This document shows positions 6,431 to 31,481 of a stretch of 64,000 bases of DNA, piece after piece. The position numbers were made by a program, and so were the translations under genes. The stretch lies in the NCBI GenBank assembly GCA_031402435.1, contig JANNSJ010000015.1:132288-196287 (forward strand), written 5' to 3'. The first letter of the stretch is position 1; each line of letters opens with the position of its first letter. The notes under the pieces were generated by a model that saw only the letters and a list, made by a program, of their open reading frames with translations, ran no database searches and had not been told where the DNA came from. Origin of the DNA: Bacteroidota bacterium. GTDB lineage: Bacteria; Bacteroidota; Ignavibacteria; UBA10030; UBA6906.

Positions 6431-7420
6431 ATGGCAACCGAAATCAAGACTTGGCAGATAGTAAACGGTAAGCTCACGGTGGTGAACTCTTCTCTGCCTG
6501 AGAACAATCGCAAAGAGAGGGAAGACCTTGAACGATGGATAAAGAGCAATCCCGAGATTCTCGGGGAAGACATCGCCGTATTTGGTGAGCAAATTCAAAC
6601 CAAATCTGGTCCACTGGACTTCCTCGGAATTGATAACAATGGCAATCTTGTCATCGTTGAACTGAAGCGTGACCACCTTCCGAGAGAGGTTCTCGCACAA
6701 GCCATAGACTACGCATCTGATGTTTCAACGTGGGAGATTGATAAGCTTGGTGAAATCTGTCAAGCATTCACTGGTCAGAACCTTGAAGACTTCTTTGCCC
6801 AAAAGTTTCCAGATACGTCTATCGAGGAATTGGTAATCAATCAAGCCCAACGACTTCTCCTTGTCGGGTTCTCAATTGAAGAATCTCTGAACCGAATGAT
6901 CGAGTGGCTTTCATCCAAATACAGCATTGGCATCAACGCTATCATTCTCAAGTATGTCAAGACATCGAACGGGGACGAGCTTCTTTCCCGCACAGTTATC
7001 ATCCCCGAAGAAGTTGAGCGAGAGAAGACAAACAAGAAGAAGTTTGTAATCGCAAAGTCAAACGAGCCTGGGAACTATGATGAAGCAACGGTGAAGGAGA
7101 AGCTGACTCAATACTTATCCCTGGATATGTATTCCGCCAAACGAATTAGAGACTACGTTCTTCCGATTCTACTCAAGAACGAGGTAACGACGAGAGAGGA
7201 AATGCGGAAAGAGTTTATTAAGATGGGCGGCGCAACCGAAAGTCAGGCGGGGTATTTTCTGGCTCTCATTTCCAGTCAACTTGGTTTCAAGTGGAACGAT
7301 TTTCTCAGGCAAGTAATCAAATATGAATTCCCGAACAACGAGTGGGAGAAAGACAACTTCACTATCCGAACAGAGTACCGTGACCTTGTCAAACAAGTCT
7401 TGAAGAATCTTGGAAAATAG
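6431..7420 (+). CDS. PD-(D/E)xK nuclease-superfamily protein (NucS/DUF91/Shedu-like restriction-endonuclease fold) with uncharacterised helical C-terminal domain
   Basis: N-terminal region DLERWIKSNPEILGEDIAVFGEQIQTKSGPLDFLGIDNNGNLVIVELKRD carries the D...(D/E)xK arrangement (D-x-n-ELK) typical of NucS-like/restriction-endonuclease-like domains. Confidence 0.6.
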   Translation: MATEIKTWQIVNGKLTVVNSSLPENNRKEREDLERWIKSNPEILGEDIAVFGEQIQTKSGPLDFLGIDNNGNLVIVELKRDHLPREVLAQAIDYASDVSTWEIDKLGEICQAFTGQNLEDFFAQKFPDTSIEELVINQAQRLLLVGFSIEESLNRMIEWLSSKYSIGINAIILKYVKTSNGDELLSRTVIIPEEVEREKTNKKKFVIAKSNEPGNYDEATVKEKLTQYLSLDMYSAKRIRDYVLPILLKNEVTTREEMRKEFIKMGGATESQAGYFLALISSQLGFKWNDFLRQVIKYEFPNNEWEKDNFTIRTEYRDLVKQVLKNLGK

Positions 7421-25146: not shown

Positions 25147-25860
25147 ATGGTATCTCACAATGTGGTTGTGGTATTCTCGTGCTCACCGGAGGACATCGGA
25201 TGGGAAGAACCCGTGGTGACGATGCCCGGCTTGCAGCCCGAGGTGGTATTGCTGCACAACGCCATTGTTGCAGACATTGTCGAGAGGCTCTCGGAACAGC
25301 CACAGTATCGTGTCATTCTTTTTGAAACGAGTGATGCACAAATTGATTTTCCGCTTCCAGCAAAAGTGGAACGGAAGATGCAATCGCCGGGACTTCTGCA
25401 CCGAAGGTTGGCTGAAGGAGTCAGAGAACTCATGGAAGGCGAGGGCGTGTCCTCAGTGATCGTGTACCTCGGGCGGAACCCGATGTATCCGGTGCCGTTG
25501 CTCGTACGCGGCTTTGAACTGCTCGCCCAGGAGGACGATGTGGTCGCGATTGGCGAGGGATTCCGCGAGTCAAACAATCCCGCTCTCATGTGGCTTGCGA
25601 TGAAGAACTATCACCCCGAATTGTTCGAGAACAACGAACGATGGTGGGAAGGAGGAGCGCCAATGCTCCAGGCAGCCGTTGATGTACCAGCGTTGGTGAT
25701 GACAGTCCGGTCCGTCAGAAACATCGCGTCGACCGACGATCTTGGATACCTCTTCCATGAAATTGAGCGCGAGGTGCTCTTGAAACAATGGTACCCTCTG
25801 CGGACGTACGAAGCACTCCACCGGATGCGTAAGAAACACCTGATACCCGAGAGCGCCTGA
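25147..25860 (+). CDS. Hypothetical protein; possibly nucleotidyltransferase-like (DUF2064-like) member of the glycan locus
   Basis: Probable start MVSHNVVVVFSC near 25147 (ORF-track start 24937 overlaps the GT2 gene). Weak resemblance to DUF2064/TIGR04282 N-terminus. Function uncertain. Confidence 0.45.
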   Translation: MVSHNVVVVFSCSPEDIGWEEPVVTMPGLQPEVVLLHNAIVADIVERLSEQPQYRVILFETSDAQIDFPLPAKVERKMQSPGLLHRRLAEGVRELMEGEGVSSVIVYLGRNPMYPVPLLVRGFELLAQEDDVVAIGEGFRESNNPALMWLAMKNYHPELFENNERWWEGGAPMLQAAVDVPALVMTVRSVRNIASTDDLGYLFHEIEREVLLKQWYPLRTYEALHRMRKKHLIPESA

Positions 25861-26438
25861 TGAAGATCGGAATCCTGGGCGGGACGTTCAATCCTCCACA
25901 TGTCGGACACTTGATCGTTGCCGAACGAGTCCGTGAAGAACTTGCACTCGATACCATTCTGTTCATTCCTTCCGCTGTCTCACCCCACAAACAACATCTT
26001 CAGCCGGTTGATGCGATCTGTCGGATGGAGATGGTGCGTCTTGCCGTGCAAGGACAGCCGCACTTCAGTACTTCGGACATCGAGGTGTCCCGCGGTGGAA
26101 TATCCTACACTATTGACACGCTTGAACAACTCAAGCAACTGCATCCCGGTGACAACTTGTACCTGCTTATCGGCATGGACAACCTCACAGAGTTCAACAC
26201 ATGGAAATCTCCGGAGAAGATCGTCGAGCTGGCTGGTCTTGTTGTCATGACACGACCCGGCTTTGAACCGAATGGAGTTCTTCAAGAATACCGGAAGAAG
26301 TTGACACTCTGCCAGGTGCCCGAGATCGGGATTTCATCAAGCGAGATTCGAGAGCGAGTGAAACAAGGGAAGTCCATCCGATACCTTGTGCCGCAGGCAG
26401 TGGAGTCGTACATTCACGCCAGGAAGTTGTATCGTTGA
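25860..26438 (+). CDS. nadD: Nicotinate-nucleotide adenylyltransferase
   Basis: MKIGILGGTFNPPHVGHL (HxGH motif), ISSSEIRERV. Confidence 0.85.
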   Translation: MKIGILGGTFNPPHVGHLIVAERVREELALDTILFIPSAVSPHKQHLQPVDAICRMEMVRLAVQGQPHFSTSDIEVSRGGISYTIDTLEQLKQLHPGDNLYLLIGMDNLTEFNTWKSPEKIVELAGLVVMTRPGFEPNGVLQEYRKKLTLCQVPEIGISSSEIRERVKQGKSIRYLVPQAVESYIHARKLYR

Positions 26439-26449
26439 AAGGAGGTTCA

Positions 26450-27019
26450 ATGGTAAAACCCCGTGTGTTGGTGCCTGAAGTTATCGAGCGGAGAATTCTT
26501 CTTGTTCGTGGACAGAAGGTGATGCTGGATGCACATCTCGCAGAGCTTTATGGAGTTGAGACAAAAACACTTAAGAGAGCTGTCAAGAGGAACATGGATC
26601 GCTTCCCGGGAGATTTCATGCTTGAGTTGACCAAGGAGGAGTCCGACTCTTTAAGGTACCAATTTGGCACCTTAAAGAGGGGAGCACACACGAAGTACAC
26701 ATCATTTGTGTTCACCGAACAAGGTGTAGCCATGCTTTCCACCGTTCTCAAGAGTAAACCAGCCATTCAGGTCAATATTGAAATCATGCGGGCATTCGTC
26801 CGACTGCGAGAGATACTCTCAACACACAAAGACCTTGCCCGCAAGCTTGAAATGCTTGAGAAGAAATACGATGAGCAATTCAGTATTGTCTTTGAGGCGA
26901 TCCGACAACTCATGACTCCGCCCGATCCACCAAAGAAACGTCCCATAGGGTTTGGTGTTGAAGAACCCAAAGTGAAGTACCGCTCGAAGCCGTCGCGATG
27001 GCCGCAGTGGCAACGGTGA
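26450..27019 (+). CDS. ORF6N domain protein (KilA-N-like DNA-binding, phage antirepressor family)
   Basis: IRGQKVMLDAHLAELYGVETKTLKRAVKRNMDRFPGDFMLEL is the ORF6N signature. Confidence 0.7.
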   Translation: MVKPRVLVPEVIERRILLVRGQKVMLDAHLAELYGVETKTLKRAVKRNMDRFPGDFMLELTKEESDSLRYQFGTLKRGAHTKYTSFVFTEQGVAMLSTVLKSKPAIQVNIEIMRAFVRLREILSTHKDLARKLEMLEKKYDEQFSIVFEAIRQLMTPPDPPKKRPIGFGVEEPKVKYRSKPSRWPQWQR

Positions 27020-27023
27020 TCTA

Positions 27024-27091
27024 CCATTTTCACTAAAGTTTCCCACCAAAACCGTAGCCCTCATAGCTCAACAGTATAGAGCACAGGTTTC
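27024..27091 (+). repeat. Truncated duplicate of tRNA-Arg 5' half plus ~30 nt of its upstream region (partner copy 29392..29459)
   Basis: ccattttcactaaagtttcccaccaaaaccgtagccctcatagctcaacagtatagagcacaggtttc vs ccattttcactaaatttttccaccaaaaccgtagccctcatagctcaacaggatagagcacaggtttc. Confidence 0.85.
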
Positions 27092-27286
27092 TCCCCTTCC
27101 TCCCAGAAATTCCCAATGAATAGCCCATTCGCTTGACAATCGTATTTCCTTTGTGTACGATACCAGCGAATTGCCGGGAGAATTTCAATCCACTCTCCTC
27201 CTTTCGGCCGGTTCGCCGCATTACCAATGCACCCTCTGCATAGCGAGCTCCGGTCGTTCGTTTAGCCAACCACAGTGTGAACCGGT

Positions 27287-29332
27287 ATGAATTCATCGGA
27301 CGAACATCGCAGCCTCGCAGCCATCATGTTTACTGACATGGTGGGGTATAGCGCTCTGGCACAGGCAGACGAAGCTCTGGCCATTGAACTGCTTGAAGAG
27401 CAAAGAAGCATTCTGCGCGCACTGTTTACGAAGCATCACGGGCATGAGATCGAAGCCATTGGTGATGGTTTCTTCGTTGAATTTGCCAGCTCACTTGAGT
27501 GTGTTCAGTGCGCCATCGACATCCAAAAAACTTTATTCTCGCGAAACGACGGGGTGGCTGCCGAACGGAGGATTCGCGTGCGCATTGGCCTGCACGTTGG
27601 CGATGTTGTACACAAGGAAGGCCGCGTGCATGGGCACGGCGTGAACATTGCCGCGCGTCTCGAGCCCATTGCGCCGCCAGGTGGAATCTGCCTTTCTGAA
27701 GACATCGCCCGCCAGATAACAAATAAAATTGACCTGCCACTGGAGAAACTCGGGGCGATACCGTTGAAGAACATCAGCCAACCGATGAGCTTATACAGGG
27801 TTGTTCTCCCATGGGACCAGCAGCCGCGTGGTTCGTCCGTACAGTCTGCCATGAGCGTCATAGGAAAACATCGGCGCGCCGTTATTGTGGCCGTTATTGC
27901 GATCGTTGCGGTTGCAGCTTTCTCGCTCTTCGTCTTCAAACAATCCAGTGTTGGAAGAGAACATTTCCTCGCCGTGCTGCCTTTCAAGAATATGAACGAG
28001 AAGGGGGAGGGGGATTATTTTAGCGATGGCATTACTGAAGACGTGATTATGCACCTCTCACGGGTCAACAGATTTCGGGTGACGTCACGAACGTCCATTA
28101 TGCCGTACAAGAATTCGGAGAAGAGTCTGCAGGATATTGGCAGGGAACTCGGTGTGCAGTATGTGCTGGAAGGAAGTGTTCGCCGCGTGGGCGACCGTAT
28201 TCGCATTGTTGCCCAGTTGATTGATGCGGCCATTGATGCCCACATTTGGTCGGAGACATACGACCAGGACTATACAAATATTCTCTCGATTCAAACCGAT
28301 GTTGCAAAAAAAATAGCAAAGGCATTGCAGCCGTCGCTTACGCCTACCGAGACGCAGCGCATTGAATCTCCTCCGACAGAAAATCTTGAGGCGTACGAAC
28401 TCTACATGAAGGGGCGTTACCAGTGGAACAAACGTATGCCCGCTGCCCTTCACAAGAGCGTCACATACTTCCAGGAAGCGATCCGCCAGGATTCGACATT
28501 TACAATTGCCTATGCCGGTTTGGCGGATGCATATATCCTGCTGGGAGACTACACGGAGTTGCGCCCTGAAGATGCATTTGCGAAAGCAAAAGCAATGGCG
28601 CAAAAAGCCATCCGACTCGACCCTGACCTGCCTGAAGCACACACCTCGCTTGGGTATGCCATCATGCACTACGATTGGGATTGGGAAGCAGCCTCAAAGG
28701 AATTCGAGCGTGCAATACAACTCTCCCCAAATAGTGCACAGGCTCATAGCTGGTATGCACTCCTTCAGGCCGTCCGAGGAAAGAACGATGAGGCAATACG
28801 GCTCATCAACAAGGCGCAGGAGTTGGATCCATTCTCTGCTGTCATTCGCACTGACGCTGGATTGGTGTTGTATTTGCTCCGGAAATACGAGATGGCAAAG
28901 GAACAGTGCCGGAAAGCGATGGAGCTTGACCCTATGTTCGGCGCCGCGTATATGCTTGACGGAGCTCTCAAAGAACAGACGGGAAGGAATGCGGAGGCAA
29001 TTGAGAGATACTCACAGATCAGCGCGATGTCACCTGGACATCAAATGATCATAGCCGCTCTTGGACATGCCTTTGCCGCTGGTGGAAAAAAAGAAGATGC
29101 AGAGAATATGCTTGAGCTTCTCCAGGACAAGGCAAAGGGTCAGTATGTGGCCTCGTATTGCTTCGCTGCAATCTACGCAGGCCTAGAGCAACGCGATCAA
29201 TCGATTGCATGGCTTGAACGCGCCTATCATGATCGGGACGGCTTATTACTCTTTCTTGCAGTTGATCCTCGATTTGATAAACTGAGAACTGATATCAGGT
29301 TTATGCGATTGTTGAAACAGATCGGTTTCTGA
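27287..29332 (+). CDS. Adenylate/guanylate cyclase catalytic domain protein with transmembrane helix and C-terminal TPR repeats
   Basis: AIMFTDMVGYSAL...IGLHVGDVV...GVNIAARLE (class III cyclase motifs). Hydrophobic stretch AVIVAVIAIVAVAAFSLFVF. TPR-like repeats in the C-terminal half. Confidence 0.85.
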   Translation: MNSSDEHRSLAAIMFTDMVGYSALAQADEALAIELLEEQRSILRALFTKHHGHEIEAIGDGFFVEFASSLECVQCAIDIQKTLFSRNDGVAAERRIRVRIGLHVGDVVHKEGRVHGHGVNIAARLEPIAPPGGICLSEDIARQITNKIDLPLEKLGAIPLKNISQPMSLYRVVLPWDQQPRGSSVQSAMSVIGKHRRAVIVAVIAIVAVAAFSLFVFKQSSVGREHFLAVLPFKNMNEKGEGDYFSDGITEDVIMHLSRVNRFRVTSRTSIMPYKNSEKSLQDIGRELGVQYVLEGSVRRVGDRIRIVAQLIDAAIDAHIWSETYDQDYTNILSIQTDVAKKIAKALQPSLTPTETQRIESPPTENLEAYELYMKGRYQWNKRMPAALHKSVTYFQEAIRQDSTFTIAYAGLADAYILLGDYTELRPEDAFAKAKAMAQKAIRLDPDLPEAHTSLGYAIMHYDWDWEAASKEFERAIQLSPNSAQAHSWYALLQAVRGKNDEAIRLINKAQELDPFSAVIRTDAGLVLYLLRKYEMAKEQCRKAMELDPMFGAAYMLDGALKEQTGRNAEAIERYSQISAMSPGHQMIIAALGHAFAAGGKKEDAENMLELLQDKAKGQYVASYCFAAIYAGLEQRDQSIAWLERAYHDRDGLLLFLAVDPRFDKLRTDIRFMRLLKQIGF

Positions 29333-29424
29333 AAGTGCCTTGAGCACCTCCAGGATTTTTCCCCGCAGACTGAAGTGCTTGCTTGCAACCTCCATTTTCA
29401 CTAAATTTTTCCACCAAAACCGTA

Positions 29425-29497
29425 GCCCTCATAGCTCAACAGGATAGAGCACAGGTTTCCTAAACCTGGAATCGAGGTTCGAGTCCCCGTGAGGGCA
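29425..29497 (+). tRNA. tRNA-Arg (anticodon CCU)
   Basis: GCCCTCA-TA-GCTC..GAGC-A-CAGGT-TTCCTAA-ACCTG-..-TTCGAGT-..-TGAGGGC-A. CCA not encoded. Confidence 0.85.
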
Positions 29498-29526
29498 CAA
29501 GGGATTTATGATTGTTGATTTTGGAT

Positions 29527-29616
29527 TGTGGATTGAAAAGCAGAACAATCCACGAATAGACACGAATAACACGAAGTAAAGAGCGGATCCACTAAGGACA
29601 CGAAGAAACACGAATC
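29527..29616 (+). repeat. Inverted repeat (tgtggattg/caatccacg) followed by five direct ACACGAA heptamers
   Basis: cCACGAAtagACACGAAtaACACGAAg...ggACACGAAgaaACACGAAtc, immediately 3' of tRNA-Arg and 5' of proS. Confidence 0.7.
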
Positions 29617-29798
29617 AAAAAGATATATAGGATTAGGTTTCCTTCGTGACACTTAGTGTACTTCCTGCCCGACTGTTAGCAAGCCGTAAACGGTCAGGCG
29701 GGCGTGGATCGTTTCATCGTTCGGATTGAAATCAAATGGGACAGGCAAGAATGCCTGTCCTGCGTTTTATTAACTATACATTTTGGACACTGAGTTTC

Positions 29799-31481
29799 AT
29801 GCGCCTTAGCAAAAGCTTCATCCCCACCGTAAAGGAAACACCTTCGGACGCTGTAATTCCCAGTCACCAATTGATGATCCGTGCGGGAATGGTTCGTTTG
29901 CTCGCTGCGGGAGTGTATTCATTCCTGCCACTCGGACAACGGGTGATGAAGAAGGTGATGGAGATAGTCCGGGAAGAAATGGATGCCATCGGCGGACAGG
30001 AATTCCATCTGCCTGCACTGAGTCCGATAGAATTGTGGGAACAAACAGGAAGAGTCAAGGCCTTCGGCGACAACCTGTTTCATCTCAAGAACCGCGCACT
30101 TGTGCTCGCCCCGACGCATGAGGAAGTGATCTGCCTGCTGGCGAAGAACCATATCTCATCCTACAAAGACATGCCGCAGATATGGTACCAGATCCAGACG
30201 AAGTTCAGGAACGAGCCGAGGCCACGATCCGGCGTACTGCGTGGACGGCAGTTCATCATGAAGGACAGCTACAGTCTCGATACTTCATGGGAAGCGCTTG
30301 ACCGGAGCTATGACCTGCACGCCGAGGCATACAAGAAAATCTTCACACGTTGCGGACTTAAGTTCTTCATCGTCGGAGCGTCAAGCGGAGCGATGGGTGG
30401 AACAGGTTCACAGGAATTTATGATGGAGGCGGATGCCGGCGAGGATGTTATCGCTCTCGCGGATTCGTACGCTGCAAACATCGAAGTGGCGACGTCCAAT
30501 GTACCGAAGGCGGAGCGCTCTGCTGAAAGCAAGCCCATGGCCGAAGTTCACACGCCGAATATCAAGACCATCGACCAGCTTGCGGAGTTCCTGAAGGTTG
30601 AGCATGCGAGACTGGCAAAGTCCGTGGTGTACTGGGCTGACGATAAGCCTGTGCTTGTGTTGATGATGGGGAATGATGAGCTGAACGAATCAAAGCTGAT
30701 GTCCGTGATGGGCGCGGATGTTCGTCCGATAGAGGCGGAGAAACTGCTGGCACTTACCGGCGCAGATGGCGGGTCAATTGGTCCTGTGGGACTCAAAGGT
30801 TTCAAGATCATTGCCGACAAGCGGCTTGAGGGTGCGAACAATCTTGTCAGTGGAGCAAACAAGAATGACTACCATCTGGTGAACATCGACCTTCAGCGCG
30901 ACTGCAAGGTCGAAAGCTACCACGATCTCCGCACTGTTCAGGCAGGAGAGCCGAGCCCGGATGGGAAGGGAAACCTGAGGATCGTGAAAGGTGTGGAGCT
31001 TGGCCACATCTTCAAGCTCGGGACGAAGTACTCTGATGCGTTGACGGCGACATTCCTTGATGAGACCGGCGTTGCTCATCCGATCATCATGGGAAGCTAC
31101 GGCATCGGCATGGAGCGCATCGTTGCCTGCCACATCGAACAGAACCACGACGCCAATGGCATCATCTGGGACAAAGCCATGGCTCCGTTTCAGATTCACC
31201 TGATCGCTGTCTCCAAGAGTGAAGTGGTACGTGAAATGGCTGAAAAGATTTATACCGACTTGATCGATGATGGCGTTGAAGTATTGTTTGATGACAGGGT
31301 GGACACGAGTCCAGGCTTCAAGTTCAAAGATGCGGATTTACTCGGCATGCCGTATCAAGTGATTGTGGGAGAGAAGAACCTTGCGGCAGGGAAGATCGAG
31401 ATCAAGGAACGCAAGACCGGTGAGAGAACGTTGGTTGATGCTGCCGATATCATAACGAAGATTCAATCACTCTTGGTGTAA
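29799..31481 (+). CDS. proS: Prolyl-tRNA synthetase
   Basis: Class II aaRS motifs; N-terminus PSHQLMIRAGMVRLLAAGVYSFLPLG typical of ProRS. Start MRLSKSF at 29799 preferred over ORF-track 29736. Confidence 0.9.
   Translation: MRLSKSFIPTVKETPSDAVIPSHQLMIRAGMVRLLAAGVYSFLPLGQRVMKKVMEIVREEMDAIGGQEFHLPALSPIELWEQTGRVKAFGDNLFHLKNRALVLAPTHEEVICLLAKNHISSYKDMPQIWYQIQTKFRNEPRPRSGVLRGRQFIMKDSYSLDTSWEALDRSYDLHAEAYKKIFTRCGLKFFIVGASSGAMGGTGSQEFMMEADAGEDVIALADSYAANIEVATSNVPKAERSAESKPMAEVHTPNIKTIDQLAEFLKVEHARLAKSVVYWADDKPVLVLMMGNDELNESKLMSVMGADVRPIEAEKLLALTGADGGSIGPVGLKGFKIIADKRLEGANNLVSGANKNDYHLVNIDLQRDCKVESYHDLRTVQAGEPSPDGKGNLRIVKGVELGHIFKLGTKYSDALTATFLDETGVAHPIIMGSYGIGMERIVACHIEQNHDANGIIWDKAMAPFQIHLIAVSKSEVVREMAEKIYTDLIDDGVEVLFDDRVDTSPGFKFKDADLLGMPYQVIVGEKNLAAGKIEIKERKTGERTLVDAADIITKIQSLLV

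What the first reader, a model, noticed from the sequence alone, without database searches (positions are those of the whole stretch)
27024..29459. Partial duplication of tRNA-Arg (5' half + leader) flanks a 2.3 kb islet carrying an adenylate cyclase-TPR signalling gene
A 66-nt segment is present at 27024-27091 (truncated copy) and 29392-29459 (part of the intact tRNA-Arg), with 3-4 mismatches. It comprises ~30 nt of upstream leader plus tRNA positions 1-~38, ending in the anticodon stem-loop. The only gene between the copies is a class III nucleotidyl cyclase with a TM helix and TPR repeats.

A crossover in the anticodon-loop region, with the incoming DNA supplying a new 5' half, is how some tRNA-targeting integrases work. 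But a 2.3 kb element without an integrase cannot be autonomous. An ORF6N (KilA-N-like) gene lies immediately left of the truncated copy.
Basis: partly seen in the sequence, partly recalled or inferred. Interest (0 to 1): 0.5.

Follow-up and report, generated by a model that had tools for sequence, protein, structure and literature searches.

The report
Dead tRNA-Arg half marks cyclase insertion
A 2.4 kb piece of DNA carrying a signalling (cyclase) gene was spliced into the anticodon loop of a tRNA-Arg gene in an Ignavibacteriota bacterium, bringing its own new front half of the tRNA and leaving the old front half behind as a decaying stump; this is an unusual, integrase-less, mirror-image version of a well-known kind of insertion scar.

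Summary
The repeat is real. It is 68 nt (27024-27091 and 29392-29459), 65/68 identical, and consists of 33 nt of leader plus tRNA-Arg(CCT) nt 1-35. It ends exactly after the first anticodon base. The only gene between the copies is a class III cyclase-TM-TPR gene.

A 96.5%-identical sister genome has the same junctions. Every other related species lacks them, including clean "empty" NadD-tRNA-ProRS loci. The left copy is decaying independently in the two strains.

The breakpoint, between anticodon nt 34 and 35, recurs to the nucleotide in tRNA-Arg(CCT) fragments of at least four other Ignavibacteriota lineages. One of these (L077) is a whole tRNA-Arg nested inside a split older one. This argues for a site-specific process, not random breakage.

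However, there is no recombinase in the islet or anywhere in the 64 kb window. Composition is native. The repeat also includes lineage-specific leader, so the incoming copy came from the same lineage.

Best reading: a fixed, non-autonomous scar of a mirror-orientation (5'-half-supplying) insertion at an anticodon-loop hot spot. ORF6N adjacency is incidental.

Moderately interesting: a new variant of a known kind.

The parts
27024..27056 (+). Left copy, leader part (33 nt). It is truncated on its left by ORF6N (stop codon at 27017-27019).
   Evidence: In sister strain L084 the homology to the true leader runs about 16-24 nt further upstream.
27057..27091 (+). Displaced 5' fragment (pseudogene) of tRNA-Arg(CCT), nt 1-35. 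It ends after the first anticodon base and carries a G-to-T change in the conserved D-loop GG.
   Evidence: ARAGORN and Rfam do not call it.
27092..29391 (+). Unique DNA between the copies; it begins TCCCCTTCC directly after the breakpoint.
   Evidence: GC is 0.50-0.54, like the flanks. It is absent from 90+ related loci.
27133..27161 (+). Sigma-70-like promoter match (TTGACA-17-TACGAT, 10/12), 126 nt upstream of the cyclase ATG.
   Evidence: This is a consensus match only; function is not shown.
27287..29332 (+). Class III nucleotidyl cyclase with TM, TolB-like and TPR regions (681 aa); the only cargo gene.
   Evidence: Pfam Guanylate_cyc 1.7e-15 plus TPR families. There are 7,774 homologues and the best non-self hit is 64% identical. 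The PycC match is only 20 bits.
29365..29424 (+). Leader of the functional tRNA-Arg. Positions 29392-29424 are duplicated in the window; about 29365/29376-29391 are additionally duplicated in the sister strain.
29425..29498 (+). Intact tRNA-Arg(CCT). Nt 1-35 (29425-29459) form the right copy of the repeat.
   Evidence: ARAGORN; Rfam tRNA 62.1 bits.
29551..29658 (+). Trailer of older origin: five CACGAA repeats (29551, 29561, 29570, 29599, 29609), GGATCC at 29585-29590, and a long hairpin pairing 29590-29605 with 29642-29658. It is homologous to the DNA that separates the intact tRNA from a displaced 3' fragment in related species.
   Evidence: fold z = -3.7.
29737..29762 (+). Terminator-like hairpin plus T-run that closes the tRNA unit before ProRS.
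26450..27019 (+). ORF6N-domain gene (context only, not part of the duplication).
   Evidence: Pfam ORF6N 7e-33; PADLOC PDC-S05 1e-55. In sister strain L084 it lies 5.2 kb from the stump.

Best explanation
The left copy is the dead, displaced front end (leader plus nt 1-35) of the resident tRNA-Arg(CCT) gene.

In a recent ancestor of this species, a DNA segment of about 2.37 kb was joined into the gene at the phosphodiester between anticodon nucleotides 34 and 35. This segment contained a cyclase gene with its own promoter, followed by a second copy of the same leader and tRNA 5' half. Its 5' half fused to the resident 3' half and regenerated a working gene. The old 5' half was pushed 2,368 bp upstream. 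This is a Campbell-type, single-crossover geometry in 'mirror' orientation.

The junction position is dictated by a site-specific activity acting in trans on the anticodon loop, a hot spot used repeatedly in this phylum. Because the duplicated leader is lineage-specific, the inserted segment came from a conspecific chromosome in which the cyclase already lay just upstream of tRNA-Arg.

The islet is now fixed, non-mobile chromosomal DNA and the stump is decaying.

Shown: the anatomy, the presence/absence pattern, the age relative to the strain split, the decay, and the recurrent breakpoint.
Inferred: the enzyme, a circular or unequal-exchange intermediate, and the conspecific donor.
For: - Exact repeat and breakpoint.
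- The sister genome GCA_031379955.1 is 96.4-96.6% identical over 10-14 kb. It has the same stump/cyclase junction (L084) and the same cyclase/tRNA junction (L085).
- Comparison of the four copies shows 1 difference shared by both left copies against both right copies. There are 2 private changes in the window's left copy and 4 in the sister's left copy, versus 0 and 1 in the right copies. The event therefore predates the strain split, and only the left copy is unconstrained.
- Empty sites: L087-L090 have NadD, 44 nt, tRNA-Arg, ProRS (ProRS 88% identical). Other species carry a methyltransferase, RRM plus nitroreductase, PPK2 or other genes there, and never the cyclase.
- The breakpoint between anticodon nt 34 and 35 recurs to the nucleotide in L077 (5' and 3' fragments), L002, L094 and L087-90/L003.
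- In L077 the two fragments rejoin into a perfect cloverleaf that is 72/76 identical to the L041 tRNA. They flank a 220-nt insert carrying a different, intact tRNA-Arg.
- The leader is not conserved in the nearest species, so the duplicated leader is lineage-specific.
- In the sister strain, leader homology ends about 32-44 nt after the cyclase stop and no trace of a second cyclase copy remains. This fits insertion into a cyclase-less recipient.
- The 5'-fragment-upstream configuration is recognised but rare (PMC4383910; PMC8371274; bioRxiv 10.1101/2020.11.02.365908).
Against: - No integrase, transposase or other recombinase domain was found in the islet, in about 50 window ORFs, or next to the fragments in L056, L077 and L038.
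- The left copy keeps no 3' arm of the anticodon stem. In L077 the 5' and 3' fragments abut with zero overlap. This does not fit the shared overlap expected of a tyrosine recombinase (6-8 bp) or a serine recombinase (2 bp).
- No donor haplotype, no circle and no polymorphic empty site within the species was found. Two metagenome scans and two viral scans returned nothing.
- The breakpoint evidence from L002 and L094 on the 5' side rests on only 6-8 nt.
Confidence: 0.5

Rival explanations
1. Tandem segmental duplication followed by loss. Unequal or illegitimate exchange between sister chromosomes joined tRNA nt 35 to position 27092. This duplicated the unit [cyclase-leader-5' half]. The upstream cyclase copy was later deleted or overwritten by ORF6N and defence cassettes, leaving only its tail (leader plus 5' half).
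For: - It explains naturally why the lineage-specific leader is duplicated and why composition is native.
- No recombinase is needed.
- The DNA to the left of the stump is clearly being remodelled, since it differs between the two strains.
Against: - It needs two events.
- No trace of a second cyclase remains in either strain. Leader homology stops inside the about 60-nt spacer after the cyclase stop, which is roughly a 3% chance for a random deletion end point within 2.3 kb.
- It does not explain why the breakpoint coincides to the nucleotide with those in at least four other lineages.
Confidence: 0.2
2. Relic of a once-autonomous, mirror-oriented integrative element. Its attP was the tRNA 5' half, and its integrase and other genes have since been deleted, leaving only the cyclase.
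For: - 5'-half att sites exist: pTN3-like integrases (PMC8371274) and Klebsiella arg2 islands.
- The configuration passes Islander's fragment and orientation rules.
- The tRNA-Arg locus of this clade is littered with anticodon-loop and T-loop fragments.
Against: - Identity extends at least 33-55 nt into a leader not shared even by the nearest species. This is unexpected for an element's own attP.
- GC content is native.
- No integrase pseudogene or other element gene lies between the copies, and the cyclase fills the interval.
- No viral or metagenomic contig carries this tRNA half.
Confidence: 0.15
3. One-off homology-facilitated illegitimate recombination of transformed conspecific DNA. The right end was anchored in tRNA/ProRS homology and the left end joined by chance at tRNA nt 35. 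The shared breakpoint with other lineages would be coincidence, or a hairpin-induced fragile site.
For: - The source is the same lineage (leader identity).
- No recombinase is present.
- The anticodon stem-loop is a small hairpin that could stall replication.
Against: - About five independent events break at the same phosphodiester out of about 75 possible.
- Insert ends are non-random: they start TC(C/T)C and end (G/T)GGA.
- HFIR usually deletes recipient DNA rather than duplicating it (this rests on established knowledge, not a tool result).
Confidence: 0.1

Closest known systems
tDNA-flanked genomic islands (Reiter 1989; Williams 2002; Islander, PMC4383910)
   Same: An intact tRNA gene plus a cognate fragment in direct orientation bracket DNA that related genomes lack. 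The fragment is on the correct side (5' fragment upstream).
   Different: There is no integrase. The interval is only 2.3 kb with one housekeeping-type signalling gene and native GC. The repeat includes lineage-specific leader. It is in mirror orientation, so the regenerated tRNA is driven by the incoming promoter; the review states that bacterial cases use the original promoter 'with very few exceptions'.
5'-half-targeting integrases: archaeal pTN3-like (PMC8371274) and Klebsiella arg2 clade I.d islands (bioRxiv 10.1101/2020.11.02.365908)
   Same: The element lies upstream of the tRNA gene, and the att repeat is the 5' part of the gene.
   Different: Those elements encode their integrase. The Klebsiella site covers the acceptor stem, D-stem and D-loop, not the anticodon loop. 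Here the repeat runs to the first anticodon base and no integrase is present.
Anticodon-loop 'symmetric sublocation' att sites of tyrosine integrases (Williams 2002, as summarised)
   Same: The breakpoint is inside the 7-nt anticodon loop. T-loop fragments also occur in the same clade (L038, L087-90, L094).
   Different: There is no retained stem symmetry and no shared overlap. 5' fragments end at nt 34 and 3' fragments start at nt 35.
Segmental tandem duplication / homology-facilitated illegitimate recombination
   Same: The two copies share same-lineage sequence on both sides, and no mobile-element genes are present.
   Different: Only one copy of the intervening gene is present, and the breakpoint recurs across lineages.

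Membership tests
tDNA-integrated genomic island (Islander criteria) | Intact tDNA plus a cognate fragment, same orientation, with the fragment on the correct side | tested here: met
   tRNA-Arg is at 29425-29498. The 5' fragment at 27057-27091 lies upstream on the same strand.
tDNA-integrated genomic island (Islander criteria) | Integrase gene inside the interval | tested here: not met
   The only ORF is the cyclase. No recombinase domain was found in about 50 window ORFs.
tDNA-integrated genomic island (Islander criteria) | Interval absent from related genomes (empty site) | tested here: met
   L087-L090 have NadD, 44 nt, tRNA, ProRS. No cyclase was found in 90+ loci.
tDNA-integrated genomic island (Islander criteria) | Foreign composition or mobility genes | tested here: not met
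   GC is 0.50-0.54, the same as the flanks.
Anticodon-loop tyrosine-integrase att site | Crossover within the anticodon loop | tested here: met
   Identity ends after loop nt 3, the first anticodon base.
Anticodon-loop tyrosine-integrase att site | Both recombinant sites keep the 6-8 bp overlap and the flanking inverted stem arms | tested here: not met
   The left copy continues TCCCCTTCC, with no ACCTG arm. The L077 5' and 3' fragments abut with zero overlap.
5'-half-targeting integrase elements (pTN3-like / Klebsiella arg2) | att repeat is the 5' part of the tRNA gene, and the element lies upstream | tested here: met
   Literature.
5'-half-targeting integrase elements (pTN3-like / Klebsiella arg2) | Cognate integrase encoded by the element | tested here: not met
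   The rest of the genome could not be tested.
Tandem segmental duplication | Two copies of the whole duplicated unit | tested here: not met
   tblastn finds a single cyclase in the window. There is no cyclase remnant left of the stump in L084.
Pycsar (PycC cyclase plus effector) | PycC-type cyclase with an adjacent cNMP-sensing effector | tested here: not met
   The PycC match is 20 bits, E 6.7e-5, which is generic domain similarity. No effector gene is present.
Group I intron in a tRNA anticodon loop | Intron ribozyme between the two exon halves, with a 5' splice site after U | tested here: not met
   No Rfam hit other than the tRNA. The break follows C, and the downstream 'exon' is a complete gene with its own leader.

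The most novel reading that the evidence does not exclude
Ignavibacteriota may harbour an undescribed site-specific insertion process that opens tRNA-Arg(CCT) genes precisely between anticodon nucleotides 34 and 35, with no overlap or target duplication. Its inserts would carry a replacement for what they destroy: a whole tRNA-Arg in L077, and leader plus 5' half in this window. They would come with conserved hairpin modules (GGATCC-stem...stem-GGGA) and sometimes cargo such as this cyclase. The enzyme would be encoded elsewhere, and the scars accumulate on both sides of the gene.
Probability: 0.25. Interest if true: 0.7.

Novelty: new variant of a known kind. Interest (0 to 1): 0.45.

Why it matters
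tRNA-gene fragments are the standard landmarks for mapping genomic islands, and nearly all mark the 3' side with an integrase next door. Here a 5' fragment, including the promoter-bearing leader, brackets a single ordinary signalling gene with no recombinase. This shows how chromosomal genes can be shuffled into a tRNA hot spot, and that the active tRNA promoter can be replaced in the process. The nucleotide-exact recurrence of the breakpoint in several lineages, with zero overlap and a tRNA nested in a tRNA, hints at a targeting mechanism that current integrase models do not fully describe. That mechanism could be tested directly.

Tried and rejected
- Assembly artefact: rejected. Both junctions are reproduced in the sister MAG and in a Logan contig.
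- Generic promoter motif or chance repeat: rejected. The 32-mer occurs twice against 0 in shuffles, and 35 of the 68 nt are tRNA.
- Foreign island by composition: rejected.
- Donor search through cyclase homologues: the best non-self hit is 64% identical and sits in an unrelated context.
- Exact-pattern scans of JGI metagenomes for the repeat core and for any 5' fragment of this allele: no hits.
- Viral contigs scanned for either tRNA half: no hits.
- Integrase next to fragments in other loci: none.
- Integrase anywhere in the window: none.
- Pycsar/defence role of the cyclase: only 20 bits to PycC.
- Riboswitch or other ncRNA between the stump and the cyclase: none.
- Group I intron reading: rejected, with no ribozyme and the wrong splice-site base.
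- IS110-type core (CT) or serine-recombinase dinucleotide at both junctions: does not fit the sequences.
- An eyeballed similarity between the upstream region of L094 and window 27110-27135: not significant by BLAST.
- ORF6N as part of the mobilised unit: rejected, because the sister strain has 5.2 kb between ORF6N and the stump.
Full report
**Observation**

The window holds one direct-repeat family of 68 nt, at 27024-27091 and 29392-29459, identical at 65 of 68 positions. A 32-nt core occurs exactly twice in the window and never in 100 dinucleotide-preserving shuffles.

ARAGORN and Rfam find a single intact tRNA-Arg(CCT) at 29425-29498, scoring 62 bits. The repeat is therefore 33 nt of upstream leader plus tRNA nt 1-35. 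It stops exactly after the first anticodon base. The gene reads CAGGTTTC|CTAAACCTG, while the left copy reads CAGGTTTC|TCCCCTTCC. The left copy has no 3' arm of the anticodon stem and no 3' half. It also carries a G-to-T change in the conserved D-loop GG.

Between the copies the only real ORF is 27287-29332. It encodes a class III nucleotidyl cyclase with a TM segment, a TolB-like region and TPR repeats. ORF6N probably starts at the ATG at 26450, which follows an AAGGAGG. It ends 4 nt before the left copy.

**Not an artefact**

An independent Logan contig (L081, 2,396 nt) runs from inside the left copy, carrying its private T, to inside the right copy. This is what a de Bruijn graph would give at a 32-nt exact repeat. 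A sister MAG, GCA_031379955.1, reproduces both junctions on two contigs.

**Context and organism**

The neighbourhood runs as follows: glycosyltransferases, a hypothetical gene, NadD (25860-26438), ORF6N, the stump, the cyclase, tRNA-Arg, ProRS, an aldehyde dehydrogenase, DnaE. ProRS relatives place the window in Ignavibacteriota/Bacteroidota MAGs.

Across 80 GTDB species loci and 13 further contigs, the order NadD, tRNA-Arg(CCT), ProRS, ALDH, DnaE is ancestral. None carries the cyclase there. GC of the islet (0.50-0.54) matches the flanks.

No integrase, transposase or other recombinase domain occurs in the islet or in about 50 ORFs of at least 90 aa across the 64 kb.

**Presence and absence**

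The sister genome is 96.4-96.6% identical over 10-14 kb.
- L084 has NadD, ORF6N, a 5.2 kb insert, the stump, then the cyclase, where the contig ends.
- L085 has the cyclase, tRNA-Arg, ProRS.

The next nearest species have ProRS 85-89% identical and lack the arrangement:
- L087-L090 have a clean NadD, 44 nt, tRNA-Arg, ProRS.
- L001 and L091 have a methyltransferase.
- L092 has an RRM protein plus a nitroreductase.
- L093 and L095 have PPK2.
- L094 has other ORFs.

The islet is thus species-specific, and the NadD-tRNA interval is a variable spot.

**Age and decay**

I aligned the four copies: window left and right, sister left and right.
- One difference is shared by both left copies against both right copies.
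- The window's left copy has two private changes.
- The sister's left copy has four private changes, including an indel and an A-to-G at tRNA nt 9.
- The right copies have zero and one.

The duplication therefore predates the strain split by only a little. The left copy evolves without constraint, at about 9% between strains against about 3.5% genome-wide. The right copy is conserved.

In the sister strain the left copy's leader homology runs about 16-24 nt further upstream, to about 29365-29376 in window coordinates. The window's boundary at 27024 is therefore secondary erosion. The original repeat was about 85-95 nt. This leader is not conserved in the closest other species.

**A recurrent breakpoint**

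I searched each related locus for partial copies of its own tRNA-Arg(CCT) and read the hits. This gave the following fragments.

- L077:
  - A 5' fragment at 7156-7192 ends ...GGTTTC|TCTC.
  - A 3' fragment from 7413 begins GGGA|CTAAACC.
  - Joined, the two form a perfect 76-nt cloverleaf tRNA-Arg(CCT), 72/76 identical to the intact gene of L041.
  - They flank a 220-nt insert carrying a different, intact tRNA-Arg. That gene is 63/76 identical to the old one and 73/76 to L047, with a compensated acceptor pair.
  - This is a tRNA gene nested in the anticodon loop of another, with zero overlap and no duplication.
- L002: the intact tRNA is followed by GGGTTTC|TCCCGC...(89 nt)...TTTGGGA|CTAAACC... 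. The rest of the 3' half is there too, interrupted again in the T-loop.
- L087-L090 and L003: a 3' fragment begins TTTTTGGA|CTAAACC about 90 nt downstream of the intact gene.
- L094: GAGGTTTC|TCCGCC... and TTTGGGA|C... .

Every 5' piece ends at anticodon nt 34 and every 3' piece starts at nt 35. Inserts begin TC(C/T)C and end (G/T)GGA. With about 75 possible positions, five or so independent events at one phosphodiester cannot be chance. The 5'-side evidence in L002 and L094 is only 6-8 nt long, but it is tied to a homologous module.

T-loop fragments also occur, in L038, L087-90 and L094. In this clade the tRNA-Arg(CCT) gene is therefore a repeatedly used, site-specific target.

**What this means for the window**

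The geometry is that of a single-crossover (Campbell-type) or precise insertion in which the incoming DNA supplies promoter/leader plus 5' half. The order is old leader plus 5' half, breakpoint, unique DNA with the cyclase, new leader plus 5' half, then the resident 3' half. The literature recognises this mirror configuration but calls it rare.

Three points limit the integrase reading.

1. No recombinase is present.
2. The left copy shows no retained overlap or stem symmetry, and L077 shows zero overlap. This is unlike classical tyrosine or serine recombination. Heterology-tolerant integrases of the CTnDOT/Tn916 type, or HUH enzymes, would fit better. That suggestion rests on my knowledge, not on a test.
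3. The duplicated leader is lineage-specific, so the incoming copy originated in the same lineage.

The simplest consistent history starts from a conspecific haplotype that had the cyclase directly upstream of the tRNA leader. The segment [27092...tRNA nt 35] was then moved, as a circle or by unequal exchange at the hot spot, into a chromosome that had other genes upstream of the same leader.

The leader homology in the sister strain stops about 32-44 nt after the cyclase stop. No remnant of a second cyclase exists. This favours that history over a tandem duplication followed by deletion. A random deletion end point would fall in that spacer only about 3% of the time.

**An older layer**

The trailer of the window's tRNA (29551-29658) contains CACGAA repeats, a GGATCC and a long hairpin (z = -3.7). 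It is homologous to the segment that separates the intact tRNA from the displaced 3' fragment in L089, L003 and L094. An earlier event of classical orientation therefore predates these species. Its 3' fragment is no longer recognisable in the window.

**Function of the cargo and neighbours**

The cyclase belongs to a very large family of cyclase-TolB-like-TPR proteins, with 7,774 hits. The best non-self hit is 64% identical and lies in an unrelated context.

It has a sigma-70-like promoter match of its own at 27133-27161. It therefore need not depend on the stump's promoter, which is damaged differently in the two strains. Its similarity to Pycsar PycC is only generic, at 20 bits.

ORF6N matches the defence-candidate family PDC-S05 at 1e-55. 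In the sister strain it is followed by an ORF6N fragment, a TPR protein, a MazG-like protein and a Schlafen-type helicase with an S24 domain that gives AbiO/Nhi-like hits. The DNA to the left of the stump is thus a small, fast-changing defence-like patch. ORF6N's adjacency to the stump in the window is incidental.

**Verdict**

The finding is real. It is best read as a fixed, non-autonomous scar of a mirror-orientation insertion at an anticodon-loop hot spot (confidence about 0.5). The rivals are tandem duplication plus loss (0.2), a gutted integrative element (0.15), and one-off illegitimate recombination (0.1).

It is a new variant of a known kind. The more novel possibility is an undescribed zero-overlap tRNA-Arg-targeting insertion process that carries replacement tRNA parts. 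It is not excluded (about 0.25) and would be considerably more interesting.

Noticed in passing
L077:7156-7452: A complete tRNA-Arg(CCT) gene (7260-7335) sits inside a 220-nt insert that splits an older tRNA-Arg(CCT) exactly between anticodon nt 34 and 35. The two old halves rejoin into a perfect cloverleaf (72/76 identical to the L041 gene). The 5' half keeps a native-looking TTTGTACATTGG leader motif.
   Followed up: yes
L002:6474-6531; L094:1974-2035; L077:7351-7412 and 7193-7241: A conserved hairpin module (GGATCC, then a 9-12 bp stem with a 1-nt bulge, an inner hairpin, ending in GGGA) abuts the displaced 3' fragment of tRNA-Arg. The stem shows compensatory changes between lineages (CAAAGTGAC/GTCACTTTG versus CGAATCGAC/GTCGATTCG). 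Among 1.5 Mb of loci it is found only next to tRNA-Arg.
   Followed up: partly
window:29551-29658: Five CACGAA repeats at about 10-nt spacing, an inverted TTCGTG, and a long hairpin (29590-29605 pairing with 29642-29658, z = -3.7) lie downstream of tRNA-Arg. CACGAA repeats are conserved in L089, L003 and L094 and also follow the L077 5' fragment. Their function is unknown; binding sites are one possibility.
   Followed up: partly
L084:10534-15779: The sister strain carries a 5.2 kb cassette between ORF6N and the tRNA stump. It contains an ORF6N C-terminal fragment, a 649-aa TPR protein, a MazG-like protein, and a Schlafen-group-3 helicase fused to a peptidase S24 domain (PADLOC PDC-S41/AbiO/Nhi-like). 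It looks like a strain-variable defence islet.
   Followed up: partly
Two diverged ORF6N copies in L084 share about 60 nt of near-identical DNA at the C-terminal LMTPPDPPKKRPIGF motif. This could be gene conversion or a recombination anchor.
   Followed up: no
L038:9402-9800; L089:4720-4766; L094:2040-2086: A second module consists of the hairpin CCGCCATCTTTTTGGCGG, then AA, then the last 17 nt of tRNA-Arg. It occurs twice in tandem (141-nt spacing) in L038, and once in L087-90 and L094. The 3' fragments in L002 and L089 are additionally interrupted in the T-loop.
   Followed up: partly
L001, L091, L092, L093/L095, L094 (interval NadD to tRNA-Arg): The interval upstream of tRNA-Arg(CCT) holds different genes in each species: a SAM methyltransferase, an RRM protein plus nitroreductase, PPK2, or unknown ORFs. 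In L087-90 it is empty. It is a general hot spot for gene turnover.
   Followed up: partly
window:29736-29801: The mechanical ProRS ORF start at 29736 overlaps a terminator-like hairpin (29737-29762). Homologues align from residue 22, so the real start is probably the ATG at 29799 (MRLSKSF...).
   Followed up: partly
window:6431-8521: Two adjacent ORFs have a weak NucS-like nuclease domain and DUF5655. They may form another small defence-type pair.
   Followed up: no
L081 (= window 27045-29440): The public Logan contig for this gene is bounded exactly by the 32-nt identical core of the repeat. This illustrates how such repeats fragment short-read assemblies.
   Followed up: yes
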